Source of the DNA: Eledone cirrhosa
Lineage: Eukaryota
DNA length: 64,000 nt
Assembly (NCBI GenBank): GCA_964016885.1
Contig: OZ024742.1
Span: forward strand, 263,500,001-263,564,000
Direction: 5' to 3'
In this document: one piece after another, positions 365 to 52,892 of the stretch
Layout of the letters: every line of letters starts with the position of its first letter
How positions within the stretch are numbered: the stretch's first letter is position 1
Made by a program: the position numbers and the translations under genes
Notes under the pieces: generated by a model
What the model was told of the DNA's origin: nothing
The model's database searches: none
Seen by the model: only the letters and a program-made list of their open reading frames with translations

Positions 365-747
<383 letters not shown>

Positions 748-753
748 AAAAAA

Positions 754-1098
754 GGAAAAGAATGACTTCACTTATAGTGTTAAAAAATGTTTGATTTAGT
801 TTTATAATATTATATTATGAGTTGGTAGATCCAGTAAGTTCTTTGTTAACTTCGGTGGGAATAATTTTAGAGATTCCTGGTTAACTTGGGTTGGAGAACT
901 TTCTCGCATTCGTCTGTCTGTGGCGATTGTCAAACTCAGACGAATGCGAGAAAGTTCTCCAACCCAAGTTAACCAGGAATCTCTAAAATTCTTCCCACCG
1001 AAGTTAACAAAGAACTTACTGGATCTACCAACTCATAATATAATATTATAAAACTAAATCAAACATTTTTAACACTACAAGTGAAGTAATTCTTTTCC
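754..1098. mobile_element. Fold-back element, ~163-bp arms, 20-nt loop, flanked by (TA)n
   Basis: 754-916 versus 937-1098 are inverted with a few mismatches; no intact hammerhead core found. Confidence 0.85.
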
Positions 1099-1233
1099 AT
1101 TTTTTAAAATATACCTAACTGTACCAAGGATCTCACACATTTTCTAATATATATATATATATAAACAATTAAGTTAAACGAAACGAAATTTAATTTCGTT
1201 TCGTTATTTGTTTTTATATATATATATATATAC

Positions 1234-1910
1234 CAACGATGGTTACTAAACACTGTACGGCTTAATTAGGGCTGTTTGTTTGTTTACAAACAAACCGAGC
1301 ATTATAATAAATGTTCGGTAAACCCATACGTACATATATATATGTGTGCGTGTATGTATATATACACATACTACTGTACGTCTGTATACATATATGTATG
1401 TACGTATACATACTTATATTTAAGTAACAGCTTAAGAGTGGGAAAGGAAATTTCGTTTCATTTTTTCCATTTATCGTTTTCGGTGCGCCCGGCCGACTAA
1501 CTCACTCGATATGCAAATTAGGCTGCTCAGCCGTTAATATGCACAAGGAAATTATATACTTTCAGACGTTCAATCATCTGGCAGGAAGGTATACGATGCT
1601 GACGATAACTAATAAGCTTGGAACTAGTACATCGTTCCTTTGTCAGTGTTGAACAAAAGGGCAACGATGGTTGCTAAACACTCTACGGCTTAATTCGGGC
1701 TGTTTGTTTCTTTACAAACAAACCGAGCATTATAATAAATGTTCGGTAAACCCATACGTACATATATATATATGTGTGCATGTATGTATATATATATACA
1801 TACTACTGTACGTCTGTATACATATATGTATGTACGTATACATACTTATATTTATGTAACAGCCGTACTAAGAGTGGGAAATGAAATTTCGTTTCATTTT
1901 TTCCATTTAT
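1234..1910 (+). mobile_element. Partial tandem (period ~428 bp) retrozyme/PLE-like element, family A, with octamer and hammerhead
   Basis: 1234-1473 is repeated at 1662-1910. The intervening part has ATGCAAAT at 1511-1518 and a hammerhead motif at 1593-1635 (ACGATG-CTGACGA-..-GGAA[GAAA mutated]-CTAG-TA-CATCGT). TA tracts at both ends. Confidence 0.75.
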
Positions 1911-2348
1911 ATATATATAACTAGTTGTTAGTTATACATATGTATATATAAACCTTCTGGTGAATGGGGTGTTGGATTAACGGTCGTAATGTCATATGTT
2001 AGATTCTTGGACTAGGTTGCGCGTTGTGTTCTTGAACAAAACATTTCGTTTTACGTTGCTCCAGTTCATTCAGCTGAAAGTGAGTAGCAGTGGTAGTTAG
2101 GAGGTGAACCCTGCAATGAACTGGCGTCCTATATAATGGCCAGCCTTGTGCTCTTAGTCATTTATCGCAAATAAAATCTGGATAAGCACCGTCATTGTGA
2201 GCCTCCAGGATTTGGACAGACTGTACACAAACTTTAGGGCGGTTTGTGATTCGTATTAGCGACCTGATACAGTTTCTTCTGATTAAAAAAGAGACCTTTT
2301 CTCCCACTTAAGTCACAGACATGCATACTATTACTGCTACTGCTGCTG

Positions 2349-15900: not shown

Positions 15901-18900
15901 CACCATCATCAGTAAGTTCTTTAGAATCTTTTTTCAATTTGCAGCCTAAATTTGCATCCTGTTCTTTGAACTGATTACCCTCGATTAATGTGTCTGAAAT
16001 AGATTTCTTTTGTGTTTGCTCAACTAAGGAACATTCATATTCATGTTTCTGTTGACTCTCTACAGATTCCAACAGAGTTTCTTCAAGATCGTGATAAAGC
16101 ACATGTTCAGGTTCTAGTGACATATCTGCAAGAACTTCTTGGACAATATCTACGGGTTCGGATAAAGCATTCACTAGATCATCAGGTAACGTATTCGCAA
16201 GTTTCACAAAGCTTTCAATTTCATTTACGGACGCAACATCAAGTGTTTCTATCGGAATGCCCTCTGATCTAGAATATTCCACAGTGGTGATCTCTGTGAT
16301 GTTTTCATTATGTTCTATGTCAACCAAATCCACCATATCCGTGCAATACTCTACTTTACAGCCATTTGAAAGGCTCAAACAATCGATCAAGTTTCTATCC
16401 AAGTCTTTGAAATGAGCTCTCTTCACGTCTGTAACAATTGTACTGACTTCTTCATATTGCAGAGATCCGGTAGATTCTGTGGAATATAGTTCTTCTGCAG
16501 GTTTTCTACATGTTTCTACAGTGACTTTAGTCTCATCAGAAATATCTCCCTTTCCTTCATCCACAGTATCTCTTTGTTCTGTTGGTGTACTACATGGTTC
16601 TTCAGTGACTTTAGTCTCATCAGAAATATCTCCCTTTCCTTCATCCACAGTATCTCTTTGTTCTGTTAGTGTACTACATGGTTCTACAGTGACTTTAGTC
16701 TCATCAGAAATATCTCCCTTTCCTTCATCCACAGTATCTCTTTGTTCTGTTGGTGTACTACATGTTTCTTTAGTGACTTTAGTCTCATCAGAAATATCTC
16801 CCTTTCCTTCATCCACAGTATCTCTTTGTTCTGTTGATGTACTACATGTTTCTACAGTGACTTTAGTCTCATCAGAAATATCTCCCTTTCCTTCATCCAC
16901 AGTATCTCTTTGTTCTGTTGGTGTACTACATGTTTCTTTAGTGACTTTAGTCTCATCAGAAATATCTCCCTTTCCTTCATCCACAGTATCTCTTTGTTCT
17001 GTTGGTGTACTACATGTTTCTTTAGTGACTTTAGTCTCATCAGAAATATCTCCCTTTCCTTCATCCACAGTATCTCTTTGTTCTGTTGGTGTACTACATG
17101 TTTCTTTAGTGACTTTAGTCTCATCAGAAATATCTCCCTTTCCTTCATCCACAGTATCTCTTTGTTCTGTTGATGTACTACATGTTCCTACAGTGACTTT
17201 AGTCTCATCAGAAATATCTCCCTTTCCTTCATCCACAGTATCTCTTTGTTCTGTTGGTGTACTACATGTTTCTACAGTGACTTTAGTCTCATCAGAAATA
17301 TCTCCCTTTCCTTCATCCACAGTATCTCTTTGTTCTGTTGGTGTACTACATGGTTCTTCAGTGACTTTAGTCTCATCAGAAATATCTCCCTTTCCTTCAT
17401 CCACAGTATCTCTTTGTTCTGTTGGTGTACTACATGTTTCTACAGTGACTTTAGTCTCATCAGAAATATCTCCCTTTCCTTCATCCACAGTATCTCTTTG
17501 TTCTGTTAGTGTACTACATGGTTCTTCAGTGACTTTAGTCTCATCAGAAATATCTCCCTTTCCTTCATCCACAGTATCTCTTTGTTCTGTTGGTGTACTA
17601 CATGTTTCTACAGTGACTTTAGTCTCATCAGAAATATCTCCCTTTCCTTCATCCACAGTATCTCTTTGTTCTGTTAGTGTACTACATGTTTCTTTAGTGA
17701 CTTTAGTCTCATCAGAAATATCTCCCTTTCCTTCATCCACAGTATCTCTTTGTTCTGTTAGTGTACTACATGGTTCTACAGTGACTTTAGTCTCATCAGA
17801 AATATCTCCCTTTCCTTCATCCACAGTATCTCTTTGTTCTGTTGGTGTACTACATGTTTCTACAGTGACTTTAGTCTCATCAGAAATATCTCCCGTTCCT
17901 TCATCCACAGTATCTCTTTGTTCTGTTGGTGTACTACATGTTTCTTTAGTGACTTTAGTCTCATCAGAAATATCTCCCTTTCCTTCATCCACAGTATCTC
18001 TTTGTTCTGTTAGTGTACTACAGGGTTCTTCAGTGACTTTAGTCTCATCAGAAATATCTCCCTTTCCTTCATCCACAGTATCTCTTTGTTCTGTTGGTGT
18101 ACTACATGTTTCTTTAGTGACTTTAGTCTCATCAGAAATATCTCCCTTTCCTTCATCCACAGTATCTGCTTTTTCTGTTAGTGTACTAAACTCTGTGTCA
18201 TCGGCAGTATGTATAACCTCCTTATCTATAATTTCTGTTAATTTTGTTAAACTATTGTTTGGCTCAATTACTGATTCTTTGGGTGTTTCTAACGTGTTAG
18301 CATCCAGAACATGTACAGATTCTAGGAGGATTCCTGACTCATTGTTTGTTTCAATGAACATTTCGGTTGATGGTTTGTAACAGACATCATCGGGACAAAT
18401 CGAGATCTCCCTCTCCTTAAAATCTTTCTCTACAACCTCTGTAGCTCTCGTCTGAATATCTTCCAGTAGGTCATTCAAAGGTGTCATGTCCTCCGCTAGA
18501 TCTCTGCATTGGAAGTTAACAGGGTCAATAAGAGTTTCTCCAGCATTTGTTTGTAAAATTTTATCAGGTTCAGTAGAAACATCAGCTACGTTCTTATAGA
18601 CAGTTTCTTCTGACATAATTCTATCTTCTATAGACTGAGTGTTTAGAACCTCTAATGATTCCGTTACACTCTCCACGGCATATTTACATAAATTTTCAAC
18701 AATTTGGGCTTCCTTATTTTCAGTTCGGACCTCCGATTCCGAGCCCTCATTCCCTTGTTCATTGTTCAGCTTGTCGATATTTGCCTCTACACAACTTTCT
18801 CTCTCTATATTCGAGAAGCCCCTGTTATTCTGCTCTTTTCCATTTAATTCTACATTCTTCATCTTTTTTGTTAATGAGCTGAAATCGACTTCTTCACTTT

Positions 18901-34274: not shown

Positions 34275-34305
<31 letters not shown>

Positions 34306-34319
34306 TTTCGAATATCTAA

Positions 34320-34380
<61 letters not shown>

Positions 34381-34384
<4 letters not shown>

Positions 34385-34905
34385 TTTCGAATATCTAAAG
34401 ATATACGGTTGTCTATACATTTCGAACTTAAATGGTGCTGATCAGGACAATGCTTCACCCGGCTTACTGCTGAACTTTGAGACAGGCGAAAATATATAGT
34501 TTTTTCGCCTGTGTAGGTGGGATGATTATCCTCATTTGCATGCGAAGCTGTATAAGTTGGTTCAACTTAAAATAGAATTAAAATTTAGCTTCGACATAGC
34601 TGTATACATGTATATGAATTTCGTATATCTAAAGATATACAGTATTTTTAATAAATAAACATTTTGAAAGCCCTGTTATGAATAGAAAGCTGATGGTCAG
34701 CGCCGTCTAGCGCAATTCAGCAGTAGCAGCGGGGGATAATTGTCTACGCATTTCCTACTTAAATGGTTCTCATCAGGACAATGCTTCCCATCCTTACTGC
34801 TGAACTTTGAAACAGGCAAAAATATATAGATTTTTAGCCTGTGTAGGCGGGCTGATTAGCCTCATTTGCATACGAAGCTGCATAAGTTAGCTCAACTTAA
34901 AACAA
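34381..34905 (-). mobile_element. Partial tandem (period 331 bp) retrozyme-like element, family B, with two hammerhead copies and two octamers
   Basis: 34409-34570 is repeated at 34740-34900. Minus-strand hammerheads at 34409-34450 and 34740-34781; ATTTGCAT at 34534 and 34864. Confidence 0.75.
34740..34781 (-). ncRNA. Hammerhead motif, family B (partly decayed)
   Basis: TTGTC-CTGATGA-GAACCATTTAAGTAG-GAAA-TGCG-TA-GACAA. The sister copy reads TTGTC-CTGATCA-GCACCATTTAAGTTC-GAAA-TGTA-TA-GACAA; the consensus restores stem II GAAC/GTTC. Confidence 0.7.
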
Positions 34906-36827: not shown

Positions 36828-37694
<867 letters not shown>

Positions 37695-42114: not shown

Positions 42115-42139
42115 GTGGGTGTCTGTGATCTATATATAC

Positions 42140-42523
42140 ATATATACATATATATACATGCACACATATATATATGTACGTATGGGTTTACCGAACATTT
42201 ATTATAATGTTCGGTTTGTTTATATGTATATATATACTTTCAAACATTCAATCATCTGACAAGAAGGTATACGATGCTGACGATAGCTAATAAGCTTGAA
42301 ACTAGTTCATCGTTCCTTTGTCAGTGTTGAACAAAAGGGCGACGATGGTTGCCGAACACTGTACGGCTTAATTCGGGCTGTTTGTTTACAAACAAACTGA
42401 ACATTATAATAAATGTTCAGTAAACCCATACGTACATATATATATGTGTGCATGTATGTATATATATATATATATACTACTGTACGTCTGTATACATATA
42501 TGTATGTACGTATACATACTTAC

Positions 42524-42525
<2 letters not shown>
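42140..42525 (+). mobile_element. Second family A copy, with 5' inverted segment
   Basis: 42232-42525 matches 1555-1855; about 42140-42231 is the reverse complement of its own 3' part (gtacgtatgggtttaccgaacatttattataatgttcggtttgttt). Confidence 0.8.
42271..42313 (+). ncRNA. Minimal type I hammerhead ribozyme motif (family A)
   Basis: ACGATG-CTGACGA-TAGC taataa GCTT-GAAA-CTAG-TT-CATCGT. 6-bp stem I, palindromic stem III ACTAGT. Confidence 0.75.
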
Positions 42526-42614
<89 letters not shown>

Positions 42615-42616
<2 letters not shown>

Positions 42617-43041
42617 AAGGTTAAACAAGGTTAAATGAATAAATCAAAGAATGAGTTTTACAATAGATTGGAAGCACTCAACAGTATGGTTTTCCAGAGT
42701 TATTAATATTAATTCAAAATATTAACAAAAAATAGACATTCGTGTGATCAAGTATATTTTATTATACATATTTCAGAGGTACTGAGCTAACTTCCACAGT
42801 ACGTCCTCATCAGATAAAATAAGATGATGCATGACATACCCTGACATAGTAGATGATTACGATTCAGTCATGATACTACCATGACTAAATCTTAACCATC
42901 TACTATGTCAGGGTATGTCATGCATCATCTTATTTTATCTGATGAGGACGTACTGTTGAAGTTAGCTCAGTACCTCTGAAATATGTATAATAAAATATAC
43001 TTGATCACACGAATGTCTATTTTTGTTAATATTTTGAATTA
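42615..43041. mobile_element. Fold-back element (~165-bp arms) with a complete family C hammerhead on each strand
   Basis: 42710-43041 is palindromic. Plus motif 42931-42997: TATTTTAT-CTGATGA-GGACGTACTG..CAGTACCTCT-GAAA-TATGTA-TA-ATAAAATA; mirror copy at 42755-42821; GCACTCAA at 42674. Confidence 0.85.
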
Positions 43042-44448: not shown

Positions 44449-44907
44449 AAGAGTGTAGATATATTTCAAAAGAGTGAAAGTCCGTGTTGAAGCACATGTA
44501 CAGTCTTTATTTGCATATTACAATTGTTTCGATATTGATCAGTTCAGAGTACAGTCAATGTGACGGGGCCCGACTCGAGAATTCGAAAAAGAGTCGGGCT
44601 CAGTTACCTTGACTGTACCCAGAGCTGATTGATATCGAAACAATTGAAATATGAAAATAAAGTTTGTAATAAAGTCAGTGCTGCAGTATGTGTACAAACT
44701 TTATTTACATATTACAATTGTTTCGATATCAATCAGCTCTGGGTACAGTCAAGGTAACTGAGCCCGACTCTTTTTCGAATTCTCGAGTCGGGCCCCGTCA
44801 CATTGACTGTACTCTGAACTGATCAATATCGAAACAATTGTAATATGCAAATAAAGACTGTACATATGCTTCACTCTTTCACTCTTTTGAAATCTATCTA
44901 CACTCTT
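44449..44907. mobile_element. Palindrome of palindromes containing four copies of a hammerhead 3' half
   Basis: 44449-44668 / 44693-44907 are inverted, and each arm is itself a hairpin. GAAA-CAATTG-TA-ATATG occurs four times in alternating orientation (one copy mutated). Confidence 0.85.
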
Positions 44908-51869: not shown

Positions 51870-52892
51870 GAAATTAACGCACAATTGGTTGAGTATTCCA
51901 TACTCAAGTGCACATTTAACATATTTCTCAGGAAGATGCAGCGTGACACAATAAGTGACAAGACCGGCCCTTTGAATTACAGGTACAACTCATTTTTGTC
52001 AATTGAGTGGGTTGGAATAAGGTGAAATAAAGCATGCCTCTCAACGATACAACACGTCGTCAGGAATTGCACTCACGCCCTCTGCTCAACGATACAACAC
52101 GTCGTCAGGAATTGCACTCACGCCCTCTGCTCAACGATACAACACGTCGTCAGGAATTGCACTCACGCCCTCTGCTCAACGATACAACACGCCGTCAGGA
52201 ATTGCACTCACGCCCTCTGCTCAACGATACAACACGCCGTCAGGAATTGCACTCACGCCCTCTGCTCAACGATACAACACGCCGTCAGGAATTGCACTCA
52301 CGCCCTCTGCTCAACGATACAACACGCCGTCAGGAATTGCACTCACGCCCTCTGCTCAACGATACAACACGCCGTCAGGAATTGCACTCACGCCCTCTGC
52401 TCAACGATACAACACGCCGTCAGGAATTGCACTCACGCCCTCTGCTCAACGATACAACACGCCGTCAGGAATTGCACTCACGCCCTCTGCTCAACGATAC
52501 AACACGCCGTCAGGAATTGCACTCACGCCCTCTGCTCAACGATACAACACGCCGTCAGGAATTGCACTCACGCCCTCTGCTCAACGATACAACACGCCGT
52601 CAGGAATTGCACTCACGCCCTCTGCTCAACGATACAACACGCCGTCAGGAATTGCACTCACGCCCTCTGCTCAACGATACAACACGCCGTCAGGAATTGC
52701 ACTCACGCCCTCTGCTCAACGATACAACACGCCGTCAGGAATTGCACTCACGCCCTCTGCTCAACGATACAACACGCCGTCAGGAATTGCACTCACGCCC
52801 TCTGCTCAACGATACAACACGCCGTCAGGAATTGCACTCACGCCCTCAGGACTGTGCGCCGGAAACCCCAACTACTAAGTCACGTGCCTTCA
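51870..52892 (-). mobile_element. tRNA-derived SINE (second family) with an internal tandem expansion
   Basis: Minus-strand head gaaggcacgtgacttagtagttggg...gtgagtgcaattcc; body matches related copies near 1960-2200 (+), 28790-29100 (-) and 39040-39320 (+). Confidence 0.65.
52040..52846. repeat. 45-bp minisatellite x 18
   Basis: ctcaacgatacaacacgYcgtcaggaattgcactcacgccctctg; units 1-3 have T and units 4-18 have C at the variable site. Confidence 0.95.

What the first reader, a model, noticed from the sequence alone, without database searches (positions are those of the whole stretch)
1234..1910. Independent ~428-bp tandem family with the same octamer-to-hammerhead layout
Seen: ATGCAAAT at 1511-1518 lies 75 nt before stem I of the hammerhead at 1593-1635, in a family with no obvious similarity to family B. 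A second copy at 42140-42525 has an intact GAAA core and a 5' inversion, so one family shows both tandem and fold-back forms. Inference: tandem and palindromic forms come from the same reverse-transcription mechanism, and a shared promoter + ribozyme layout recurs.
Basis: partly seen in the sequence, partly recalled or inferred. Interest (0 to 1): 0.72.

Follow-up and report, generated by a model that had tools for sequence, protein, structure and literature searches.

The report
Hammerhead retrozyme with host-type snRNA promoter
This is a pair of copies of an abundant small non-coding repeat that carries a hammerhead (self-cutting RNA) motif and a block matching the host's own U6-type gene promoters; it was likely spread through RNA by Penelope-type retrotransposon enzymes, so it is a new family of a known kind of element.

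Summary
Window 1235-1910 is a 5'-truncated copy (1235-1474) joined head-to-tail to a full-length copy (1475-1910) of a ~424-428-nt non-coding repeat with thousands of genomic copies. The family consensus carries a canonical animal type I hammerhead. The copy at 1578-1646 has two private core mutations; the copy at 42256-42324 is intact. Rfam does not score the motif, but stems covary across sister families while the core stays fixed.

Copies share one 3' end (...CCATTTAT) abutting (TA)n. Their 5' ends vary, and more than half of the loci have an adjacent inverted 5'-truncated partner. This is the published insertion signature of Penelope-like elements, so the family is a non-LTR retrozyme. No autonomous partner was found.

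The octamer is family consensus. It is the first 8 nt of an 11-nt box (ATGCAAATKAG) that also sits at -76 to -78, with TATA at -30, upstream of this genome's U6, U6atac and RNase MRP genes. In the repeat, box and TATA lie 42-43 nt apart (46-48 in the genes), which predicts a start at the ribozyme's first helix. The box-TATA-hammerhead cassette has 19,228 exact genomic matches and 0 for the reversed pattern. Transcription, cleavage and RNA circles are untested.

Earlier notes of this scan reported the same cassette elsewhere in this genome.

The parts
1209..1234 (.). (TA)n tract plus 'cc' on the left flank: the microsatellite that holds the insertion
   Evidence: sequence
1235..1474 (+). 5'-truncated upstream copy (unit positions q1-240), ending in ...TTTCATTTTTTCCATTTAT; it plays the role of a pseudo-LTR
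1475..1910 (+). full-length copy (q241-428 then q1-240). It starts CGTTTTCGGTGCGCCC and ends CCATTTAT directly before (TA)n
   Evidence: Single-unit copies bounded by (TA)n on both sides in L128 and L130 define this as the full length.
1461..1480 (+). oligo(T) runs on either side of the element's 3'-end coordinate: T6 at 1461-1466 and T4 at 1477-1480. They would stop RNA polymerase III; their role is unresolved.
   Evidence: consensus
The same box sits at -76 to -78 of the host U6, U6atac and RNase MRP genes.
1553..1558 (+). TATA-like box, 42 nt after the start of the box and at the centre of a 16-nt palindrome in the consensus
1583..1583 (+). predicted (not mapped) transcription start, 30 nt after the TATA as in the host U6 and MRP genes; it falls in the outer strand of helix I
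   Evidence: inference
1578..1646 (+). type I hammerhead motif, decayed in this copy (GGAA at 1620-1623, A1608). The site equivalent to the cleavage site lies between 1629 and 1630.
1911..1919 (.). (TA)n on the right flank
42138..42222 (-). inverted, 5'-truncated arm of a second family A insertion (reverse complement of about q52-135); it merges leftwards into a TA/TG-rich tract
42227..42529 (+). direct arm of the second insertion (about q317-428 then q1 to about q186), ending in (TA)n. It lacks the box region because its 5' truncation lies downstream of it.
42256..42324 (+). hammerhead motif with an intact core: CTGACGA 42277-42283, helix II 42284-42297, GAAA 42298-42301, loop CTAG 42302-42305, predicted cut between 42307 and 42308
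34290..34874 (-). family B copies with the same cassette. Boxes ATGCAAATGAG start at 34871 and 34541 (minus strand), with TATA 43 nt later and then a hammerhead of the same architecture.

Best explanation
Window 1235-1910 holds a 5'-truncated copy joined head-to-tail to a full-length copy of a ~424-428-nt non-coding repeat whose consensus carries a canonical type I hammerhead motif. The repeat was likely copied into (TA)n tracts through an RNA intermediate by Penelope-like retrotransposon enzymes, which makes it a non-LTR retrozyme.

Shown directly:
- The family has thousands of dispersed copies.
- Copies share one fixed 3' end next to (TA)n, have variable 5' ends, and often have an inverted 5'-truncated partner.
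- Multi-unit arrays are seamless.
- The hammerhead core is intact in the consensus, and its stems covary across sister families.
- Each unit carries a box-plus-TATA cassette whose box equals the one upstream of the host's U6, U6atac and RNase MRP genes.

Inferred:
- The cassette would act as a built-in snRNA-type promoter that starts transcription at about q349, the 5' edge of helix I.
- The ribozyme has a 1-bp helix III with a palindromic loop, so it would cut best as a dimer in multimeric RNA. It would trim transcripts after q395.
- Unit-length RNA would be ligated into circles, as shown experimentally for such elements in other animals.
- A Penelope-type endonuclease and reverse transcriptase would nick (TA)n, prime at the UAU at q238-240, and copy the RNA once or several times round. 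This would give full-length units, partial tandems and inverted partners.
For: Copy number and spread: 3,357 first-look candidates on many contigs, at 91-94% identity to the window copy.

Consensus hammerhead: CUGGCAGGAAGGUAUACGGUG / CUGACGA / U-AGCU-AAUA-AGCU-U / GAAA / CUAG / U-A | CAUCGUUCCUUUGUCAG. The core is intact in 47 of 59 copies from 28 loci.

Across families read from stored loci:
- The six inner helix I pairs and helix II pairs 2-4 stay paired with different sequences: ACGGUG/CAUCGU, ACGAUG, ACGUUG/CAGCGU, UUGUC/GACAA, ACCGUC/GACGGU and GUAGUC/GAUUAC.
- CUGANGA, GAAA and UH are fixed.
- Helix III is always 1 bp with a CUAG, UGCA or CGCG loop.

This is the 'canonical' animal type I architecture of Cervera and de la Pena 2014 (PMC4209133, passages). 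It combines traits of the two axolotl forms: a 1-bp helix III with a palindromic tetraloop, and a U-U at the base of helix II (PMC7229834, passages).

The predicted fold gives the three-way junction: -20.6 kcal/mol, z -2.46.

Ends:
- 15 of 16 true terminal ends read ...CCATTTAT|(AT)n, and 43 internal junctions are seamless.
- Full-length single units are bounded by (TA)n on both sides.
- Inverted partners occur at 17 of 28 loci and 15 of 27 loci.

GIY-YIG endonuclease matches are very numerous: 10,595 candidates, and all 150 scored pass the cut-off.

Published insertion pattern of Penelope-like elements. Retrozymes as derivatives of such elements: abstract of the 2026 preprint.

Promoter:
- The box lies at -76 to -78 and TATA at -30 in U6 L031, U6 L032, the U6 tandem cluster, RNase MRP and U6atac L062.
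- The composite pattern hits only these genes in the stored snRNA loci, and only families A and B in the window.
- The cassette has 19,228 genomic matches against 0 for the reversed pattern.
- It is also present in family H, which the pattern did not select.
- The box arm is the same in every family seen here, although most of those were found with a pattern that required it; its hairpin partner varies (A, A') or is absent (B).
Against: - Rfam gives no hammerhead match: none at gathering score on the window or on 9 loci, and none at E<=10 on the intact copy. RF00163 does hit another hammerhead family in this genome, one with a GUCC/GGAC helix II. The model therefore looks narrow, but the curated test is still not met.
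- No RNA data were available, so cleavage, circles, the start site and the polymerase are all untested.
- No autonomous Penelope-like element sharing the family's 3' end was found among 30 GIY-YIG loci.
- Box-to-TATA spacing is 42-43 nt in the repeats against 46-48 nt in the host genes.
- The box was absent upstream of 2 of 5 U6 loci, 2 of 3 U6atac loci, the 7SK match and the RNase P match.
- U1 and U2 genes also have a TATA at -30, so the TATA does not name the polymerase.
- T6 and T4 runs inside each unit would stop polymerase III before a second ribozyme is reached.
- Conservation is flat along the unit (0.89-0.98), so the copies themselves show no selection on any motif.
- In family A the box is also one arm of an imperfect hairpin.
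Confidence: 0.7

Rival explanations
1. The octamer block is not an snRNA-type promoter. It would instead be an arm of an RNA hairpin that stabilises the rod-like (circular) RNA, or an ordinary POU/Oct factor site. Transcription would then come from elsewhere, by read-through or from another promoter.
For: - In family A the box pairs with an inverted near-copy 15-25 nt downstream (9 of 10 positions, read from the consensus).
- The TATA lies at the centre of a palindrome in A and in the loop of an 11-bp inverted repeat in B.
- Spacing to the TATA is 4-5 nt shorter than in the host genes.
- Three earlier notes of this scan reached this view.
Against: - The 11-nt box is identical to the one at a fixed position upstream of five host U6, U6atac and MRP promoters.
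- The box arm stays the same while the partner arm changes (A against A') or is missing (B, B'). This pattern fits a protein-binding DNA word better than a helix.
- Family H, which the pattern did not select, keeps the box and the 42-nt spacing.
Confidence: 0.3
2. The template for copying is a linear multi-unit transcript of an existing tandem array, starting at the internal promoter or at a ribozyme cut. It is not a circular RNA copied by rolling-circle reverse transcription.
For: - 11 of 45 arms have 5' ends at consensus positions 360-399, between the predicted start (345) and just past the cut site (392). An even spread would give about 4 (post hoc window, P 0.003).
- The 3' end lies within a few nt of oligo(T) runs.
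Against: - 7 of 45 arms end at positions 238-257, exactly one turn from the 3' end at 236. An even spread would give about 2 (P 0.005, post hoc). A one-turn stop on a circle explains this; a linear start does not.
- Several 5' ends in the 360-399 group lie upstream of the cut site. That group also fits reverse-transcriptase pausing in the folded ribozyme.
- The T6 run would stop polymerase III within each unit.
Confidence: 0.3
3. Family A is a satellite DNA spread and amplified only at the DNA level (unequal crossing-over, extrachromosomal circles), and the hammerhead is a relic.
For: - Long arrays exist: at least 8 units in L021 and at least 5 in L028.
- No poly(A) tail or target-site duplication is visible.
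Against: - Thousands of dispersed short insertions on many contigs share one exact 3' end in (TA)n, are graded in 5' truncation and have inverted partners.
- 47 of 59 copies keep the ribozyme core.
Confidence: 0.06
4. It is a DNA transposon or MITE, or the fold-back forms are assembly artefacts.
For: - Palindromic structures flanked by TA could suggest a TA-targeting cut-and-paste element.
- Inverted repeats are hard to assemble (Craig et al. 2021).
Against: - There are no terminal inverted repeats.
- The two arms of each inverted pair are truncated at different positions.
- The inverted pairs occur at 32 of 55 loci sampled in two sets.
- Direct-only copies have unlike ends.
Confidence: 0.03

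Closest known systems
Metazoan non-LTR retrozymes (Cervera and de la Pena 2020, PMC7229834; passages read)
   Same: - Non-coding, low-GC (36%) repeat of a few hundred nt with a type I hammerhead, found as tandem and dispersed copies.
- No LTR.
- Helix III of 1 bp with a palindromic tetraloop, and a U-U at the base of helix II, as in the two axolotl forms that cleave best as dimers.
   Different: - The unit (424-428 nt) is slightly above the 170-400 nt RNA range quoted there, but inside the 150-450 bp repeat range in the same paper.
- The passages I read in that paper describe no built-in promoter for these elements.
- RNA circles are not shown for this family.
Non-autonomous derivatives of Penelope-like elements (Craig et al. 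2021, PMC8557442; Li, Clavereau and Pollet 2026 preprint 10.64898/2026.07.22.740005; Cervera and de la Pena 2014, PMC4209133)
   Same: - 5' truncation and partial tandems (pseudo-LTR plus full copy).
- An adjacent inverted 5'-truncated copy.
- A (TA)n insertion bias.
- A hammerhead in the repeated part.
- The genome is rich in GIY-YIG endonuclease matches.
   Different: No autonomous partner with a shared 3' end was identified here, so the link rests on anatomy alone.
Newt satellite 2 (Epstein and Gall 1987; Coats, Zhang and Epstein 1994, NAR 22:4697)
   Same: A hammerhead-bearing tandem repeat with an internal snRNA-type promoter. This is stated in PMC2220036, which cites Coats et al..
   Different: - The newt promoter is reported there as polymerase II-driven.
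- Here the box is the one found at the host's U6, U6atac and MRP genes, and the polymerase is unknown.
- The Coats paper is not held, so its details are recalled, not checked.
Schistosome Sm-alpha repeat (Ferbeyre et al. 1998)
   Same: A hammerhead repeat with its own internal polymerase III promoter (as cited in PMC2220036).
   Different: From recall, that element is SINE-like with a tRNA-type internal promoter, not an upstream box-plus-TATA cassette. I did not read that paper.

Membership tests
Type I hammerhead ribozyme (canonical animal form) | Conserved core CUGANGA ... GAAA ... U-H, with A15.1-U16.1 | tested here: met
   Present in the consensus, in 47 of 59 copies and in the window copy at 42277-42307. 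Not met in the window copy at 1599-1629 (GGAA), a private mutation.
Type I hammerhead ribozyme (canonical animal form) | Helices I and II base-paired, supported by covariation; helix I open (type I) | tested here: met
   eight sequence groups with 3 or more copies were listed. In six groups with intact stems, inner helix I (6 bp) and helix II pairs 2-4 are paired in the commonest form of each, with 2-4 different pair types per position. The window-like AACT group has one broken helix II pair, and one group (CAGTCA) does not fit. Within the A group one helix I pair occurs as G-U, A-U and U-G.
Type I hammerhead ribozyme (canonical animal form) | Short helix III (1-2 bp) capped by a small palindromic loop | tested here: met
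   A-CUAG-U in family A, A-UGCA-U in B and B', A-CGCG-U in G. The feature is as described in PMC4209133.
Type I hammerhead ribozyme (canonical animal form) | Match to the curated Rfam model RF00163 at its gathering score | tested here: not met
   No match, and none at E<=10. The model does hit a different hammerhead family of this genome.
Type I hammerhead ribozyme (canonical animal form) | Self-cleavage at the predicted site | not testable with these tools
   Needs in vitro transcription of monomeric and dimeric constructs.
Metazoan non-LTR retrozyme | Non-coding tandem or dispersed repeat of about 150-450 bp with a type I hammerhead, low GC, and no LTR, PBS or PPT | tested here: met
   Period 428. 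GC 36%, and no stop-free stretch above 83 codons in a trimer of the consensus. No LTR was seen in 55 loci. PBS and PPT were not searched for specifically.
Metazoan non-LTR retrozyme | Expressed as linear and circular unit-length RNA | not testable with these tools
   No RNA run was listed; only contigs of unknown library type were laid.
Penelope-like-element-dependent (non-autonomous) insertion | 5' truncation, partial tandem, adjacent inverted 5'-truncated copy, microsatellite target | tested here: met
   The criteria come from PMC8557442.
Penelope-like-element-dependent (non-autonomous) insertion | 3' end shared with an autonomous element of the same genome | tested here: inconclusive
   No similarity to the family A tail in 30 GIY-YIG loci out of 10,595 candidates. 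The one family A hit, in L115, is a separate insertion.
snRNA-type (box plus TATA) promoter | Same proximal box as the host snRNA-type genes | tested here: met
   - ATGCAAAT[G/T]AG at -76 to -78 of U6 L031, U6 L032 and RNase MRP L060.
- ATGCTAATTAG in the U6 cluster; ATGGAAATTAG in U6atac L062.
- Family A has ATGCAAATTAG and family B has ATGCAAATGAG.
- Misses: U6 L044 and L045, U6atac L063 and L064, 7SK, RNase P.
snRNA-type (box plus TATA) promoter | Fixed box-to-TATA spacing and a start about 30 nt after the TATA | tested here: inconclusive
   Spacing is 42-43 nt in A, B and H against 46-48 nt in the genes. The start site is not mapped.
DNA transposon / MITE | Terminal inverted repeats, fixed ends on both sides, target-site duplication | tested here: not met
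   Only the 3' end is fixed, the 5' ends are graded and there are no terminal inverted repeats. Target-site duplications cannot be read inside (TA)n.

The most novel reading that the evidence does not exclude
Tens of thousands of retrozyme units carry a portable copy of the host's U6/MRP-type promoter (proximal box plus TATA), placed so that transcription begins at the ribozyme's first helix. Unit-length copies whose 5' end abuts their own 3'-end coordinate are genomic footprints of one-turn reverse transcription of a circular RNA.
Probability: 0.35. Interest if true: 0.65.

Novelty: new member of a known kind. Interest (0 to 1): 0.45.

Why it matters
Retrozymes encode no protein, and how they get transcribed in animals is not addressed in the retrozyme papers I could search. 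If the box-plus-TATA cassette works as it does at the host's U6-type genes, it would explain how these elements are transcribed without a protein-coding promoter. It would also mean the genome holds about 19,000 extra snRNA-type promoter units. These could compete for the snRNA transcription machinery and seed small-RNA transcription near genes. The fixed 3' end, the graded 5' ends and the one-turn copies give a concrete, testable picture of how Penelope-type enzymes copy a small, possibly circular, RNA. The element class itself is already known.

Tried and rejected
- **Rfam:** no match in any of the calls on the window or on 9 loci. The TA/TG-rich part of the unit gives only sub-threshold microRNA-like matches, which I treat as low-complexity noise.
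- **RNA evidence:** no RNA holder was listed. Laying contigs of two runs gave only copy-number and variant information. It gave no starts, ends or circular joints that could be used.
- **Autonomous partner:** BLAST of the A and B consensus against 30 GIY-YIG loci found no shared tail. Short 78% matches of family B in L092 and L096 look like separate inverted insertions. A regex scan for hammerheads in those loci printed nothing because of a flaw in my lazy pattern, so it is not evidence.
- **Selection:** per-position conservation along the unit is flat, so it cannot be read from the copies.
- **Polymerase III terminator idea:** I considered that the element's 3' end is set by such a terminator. 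The oligo(T) runs lie at different offsets from the 3' end in A, B and H, so I dropped it as a firm claim.
- **Organism:** earlier notes call the genome octopus-like. I did not test this.
Full report
**1. What is in the window**

Positions 1235-1910 hold a direct repeat with a 428-nt period. Unit 1 is 1235-1662 and a partial unit 2 is 1663-1910. The octamer ATGCAAAT is at 1511-1518.

Downstream lies a hammerhead-shaped motif at 1578-1646:
- an outer helix I strand, CTGGCA (1578-1583)
- ACGATG (1593-1598)
- CTGACGA (1599-1605)
- a helix II hairpin (1606-1619)
- GGAA (1620-1623)
- CTAG-T-A (1624-1629)
- CATCGT (1630-1635), continuing to TGTCAG (1641-1646)

GGAA in place of GAAA, and A1608 in helix II, would disable this copy. 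Contigs of public runs show both letters are private to it. The family reads G at 1608 (375,830 of 381,540 depth units) and A at 1621 (712,008 of 712,249).

An inverted arm (about 42138-42222) abuts a direct arm (about 42227-42529), whose motif at 42256-42324 has an intact core.

**2. The family**

The own genome (3.0 Gb) gave 3,357 first-look candidates for the unit, with scored copies at 91-94% identity on many contigs. A pile-up of 112 alignments from 29 loci gives a 424-nt consensus with an intact hammerhead:
- a long helix I with internal loops
- CUGACGA
- helix II AGCU/AGCU above a U-U
- GAAA
- a single A-U pair closed by the palindromic loop CUAG
- H17 = A

Of 59 copies spanning the motif, outside the window's own locus, 47 keep the whole core. 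Of 56 spanning the octamer, 47 keep it. Conservation is flat along the unit (0.89-0.98), as expected for neutral decay from a young master. The copies therefore say nothing about selection.

The unit is 36% GC. A trimer of the consensus has no stop-free stretch above 83 codons.

**3. Is the hammerhead real?**

Against:
- Rfam finds nothing. There is no match at gathering score in the window or in nine loci, and none at E<=10 on the intact copy.

For:
- A simple descriptor of my own finds six motifs in the window against 0.01 expected per Markov-2 random window.
- The predicted fold is the three-way junction.
- Sister families in the stored loci keep the core while changing both strands of the helices. 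Inner helix I is ACGGUG/CAUCGU, ACGAUG/CAUCGU or ACGUUG/CAGCGU in subgroups of A. It is UUGUC/GACAA in B, ACCGUC/GACGGU in B' and GUAGUC/GAUUAC in G.
- Helix II is AGCU/AGCU, GAAC/GUUC, AGGC/GCCU or UUCU/AGAA.
- Helix III is always one pair with a CUAG, UGCA or CGCG loop.
- One of the eight groups in that table (CAGTCA) does not fit.

Comparison with published forms:
- Cervera and de la Pena 2014 (PMC4209133, passages) describe this as the usual animal type I form: 6-bp helix I, 4-bp helix II, and a 1-2-bp helix III with a small palindromic loop, active as a dimer.
- The 2020 paper (PMC7229834, passages) describes the axolotl forms with a 1-bp helix III and palindromic tetraloop, and with a U-U at the base of helix II.

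RF00163 does hit another hammerhead family in this genome, one with the GUCC/GGAC helix II. So the curated model appears narrow. The membership test by Rfam is still not met, and I report it as such.

**4. Anatomy of insertions**

Among ends where the array stops, 15 of 16 read ...TTTCATTTTTTCCATTTAT followed directly by (AT)n, and one is followed by (CT)n. All 43 internal unit junctions are seamless.

A second sample, chosen with a 93-nt probe that does not bias the 5' extent, shows that the full-length element is one unit. It runs from about consensus position 238-254 to 236. In L128 and L130 it is bounded by (TA)n on both sides.

So window 1235-1474 is a 5'-truncated copy, and 1475-1910 is a full-length copy joined head-to-tail.

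The 5' ends of the 45 arms in that sample are spread round the unit, with two excesses. I chose the windows after seeing the data, and alignment edges are approximate.
- 7 lie at positions 238-257, one turn from the 3' end (P 0.005).
- 11 lie at positions 360-399, inside the ribozyme (P 0.003).

An adjacent inverted arm, truncated at a different point from its partner, is present at 17 of 28 loci and 15 of 27 loci. Arrays reach at least 8 units.

Craig et al. 2021 (PMC8557442, passages) list these traits for Penelope-like elements and their non-autonomous forms:
- strong 5' truncation
- partial tandems forming pseudo-LTRs
- an adjacent inverted 5'-truncated copy
- multicopy head-to-tail insertions
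- a (TA)n bias

The genome holds very many GIY-YIG endonuclease matches: 10,595 candidates, and all 150 scored pass the cut-off. The 2026 preprint by Li, Clavereau and Pollet (abstract and passages) argues that animal retrozymes derive from such elements. I found no autonomous element sharing the family's tail among 30 loci, so the link is by anatomy only.

**5. The octamer**

The octamer is not enriched in the window as a bare word: 8 matches against 5.8 expected. It is the start of a longer box.

Family B, on the minus strand at 34290-34874, has ATGCAAATGAGGCTAATCAGCC where family A has ATGCAAATTAGGCTGCTCAGCC. A TATA-like box follows 43 and 42 nt after the box start respectively, and then a hammerhead of the same build.

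I compared this with the genome's own small-RNA genes.

| Gene (locus) | Box | Box position | TATA |
|---|---|---|---|
| U6 (L031) | ATGCAAATGAG | -76 | -30 |
| U6 (L032) | ATGCAAATTAG | -77 | -30 |
| U6 tandem cluster (L033) | ATGCTAATTAG | -78 | -30 |
| RNase MRP (L060) | ATGCAAATGAG | -77 | -30 |
| U6atac, best match (L062) | ATGGAAATTAG | -77 | -30 |

Misses and related cases:
- Two other U6 loci (L044, L045), two other U6atac loci, the 7SK match and the RNase P match lack the box. Several of these sit in TA tracts and may be dead copies, but I did not test that.
- U1 and U2 genes have a related but different word (AAATCAGTRG) near -60, and also a TATA at -30.

A regex for box plus TATA hits the window only in families A and B: 3 hits against 0.013 expected. 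In about 125 kb of stored snRNA loci it hits only upstream of those genes. The pattern was derived from those genes, so only its specificity is informative.

The full cassette (box, 26-36 nt, TATAWA, 35-75 nt, CUGANGA) has 19,228 exact matches in the genome. The reversed pattern has 0. The matches cover at least families A, A' and a relative of B.

Family H turned up by chance in a flank. It also has the box, then CATATAA 42 nt later, then the ribozyme.

The box arm is the same in every family seen here, although most of those were found with a pattern that required it. Its hairpin partner differs between A and A' and is missing in B. This fits a protein-binding DNA word better than an RNA helix, though in family A it may be both.

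Counting 30 nt from the TATA, as in the host genes, puts the predicted start at about q349 (window 1583). That is the outer strand of helix I.

Points against a simple reading:
- The spacing is 42-43 nt, not 46-48 nt.
- The polymerase cannot be named.
- T6 and T4 runs in each unit would stop polymerase III before a second ribozyme is reached.

**6. Mechanism I commit to**

Shown:
- the anatomy of the insertions
- the ribozyme motif and its covariation
- the identity of the box with the host promoters
- the abundance of the cassette

Inferred:
- The cassette drives transcription from inside the element.
- The weak, dimer-type ribozyme cuts multimeric RNA after q395.
- Unit-length RNA is circularised by a host ligase, as shown for coral, mussel and axolotl elements.
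- Penelope-type enzymes nick (TA)n, prime at the UAU at q238-240, and copy the RNA for part of a turn, one turn or several turns.
- A second priming event on the other strand gives the inverted partner.

Whether the template is a circle or a linear multimer is open. The one-turn class favours a circle. The 360-399 class fits either a start or cut site, or pausing in the folded ribozyme.

**7. Comparison and novelty**

The element is a new family of a known class: animal non-LTR retrozymes, dependent on Penelope-like elements.

An internal snRNA-type promoter in a hammerhead repeat has a precedent in newt satellite 2. I know this only from the citation in PMC2220036 and from recall, because the paper itself is not held.

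The word 'promoter' occurs only in T7 cloning contexts in the 2020 paper and not at all in the 2026 preprint. A search for 'retrozyme' with 'polymerase III' gave two papers, and by title and abstract start neither is about this. I did not read any supplements.

Earlier notes of this scan on other DNA of the same genome reported the same cassette. Two read it as a host-type snRNA promoter, and three called that unproven because of the hairpin.

Noticed in passing
window 486-676: Perfect palindrome bounded by (TA)n on both sides. Each ~95-nt arm ends in a different hammerhead-like motif (TATTTTATCTGATGA...GAAA...ATAAAATA). It looks like two 5'-truncated copies of another small element inserted head-to-head.
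   Followed up: partly
window 37089-37463 and 42750-43010: Two more head-to-head inverted pairs (99% complementary arms in the first). Each arm carries a hammerhead-like motif with the helix I strands TATTTTRT/ATRAAATA. Descriptor hits are at 37138-37203(-), 37349-37414(+), 42755-42821(-) and 42931-42997(+). The second pair lies 200 nt from the family A insertion.
   Followed up: partly
window 1143-1212: Short hairpin-forming piece (AAACGAAACGAAATTTAATTTCGTTTCGTTATTTGTTTTTAT) between two (TA)n tracts, just upstream of the family A copy. It matches the 3' end of family H as seen in L137, so it is probably a heavily 5'-truncated insertion of that sister family.
   Followed up: partly
window 744-1140: Large imperfect palindrome (centre near 940) between (TA)n tracts, with no canonical hammerhead hit. 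It may belong to the rearranged-hammerhead families that other notes of this scan describe. Not examined.
   Followed up: no
window 44488-44873: 98% complementary inverted pair with ATGCAAAT near both outer ends (44509 minus strand, 44845 plus strand). The octamer is not followed by KAG, and no hammerhead hit was found. Family unknown.
   Followed up: no
L033-L050 (own genome, contig C19, about 31.78-31.84 Mb): Tandem cluster of at least 30 U6 genes with a period of about 1.8 kb. In some units a ~190-nt repeat is inserted between the box and the gene, so the box lies about 270 nt upstream instead of 78.
   Followed up: no
L181-L190 (own genome): A further hammerhead family, recognised by Rfam RF00163 (CCUGAUGAGUCCUAAAUAGGACGAAACAUUGUC). 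It often lies next to an inverted copy and has no box-TATA cassette in the 200 nt upstream.
   Followed up: partly
own genome, U1/U2 against U6/MRP/U6atac upstream regions (L031-L070): Both gene classes have a TATA-like box at -30 but different proximal words: AAATCAGTRG near -60 against ATGCAAATKAG near -77. This is an unusual promoter arrangement that may decide polymerase choice in this animal.
   Followed up: partly
window 16506-18188 and 52040-52847: Long, very regular tandem arrays (84-nt unit x 20 at 96% identity; 45-nt unit x 18 at 99% identity). Both periods are multiples of three, so they may be coding repeats. Not examined.
   Followed up: no
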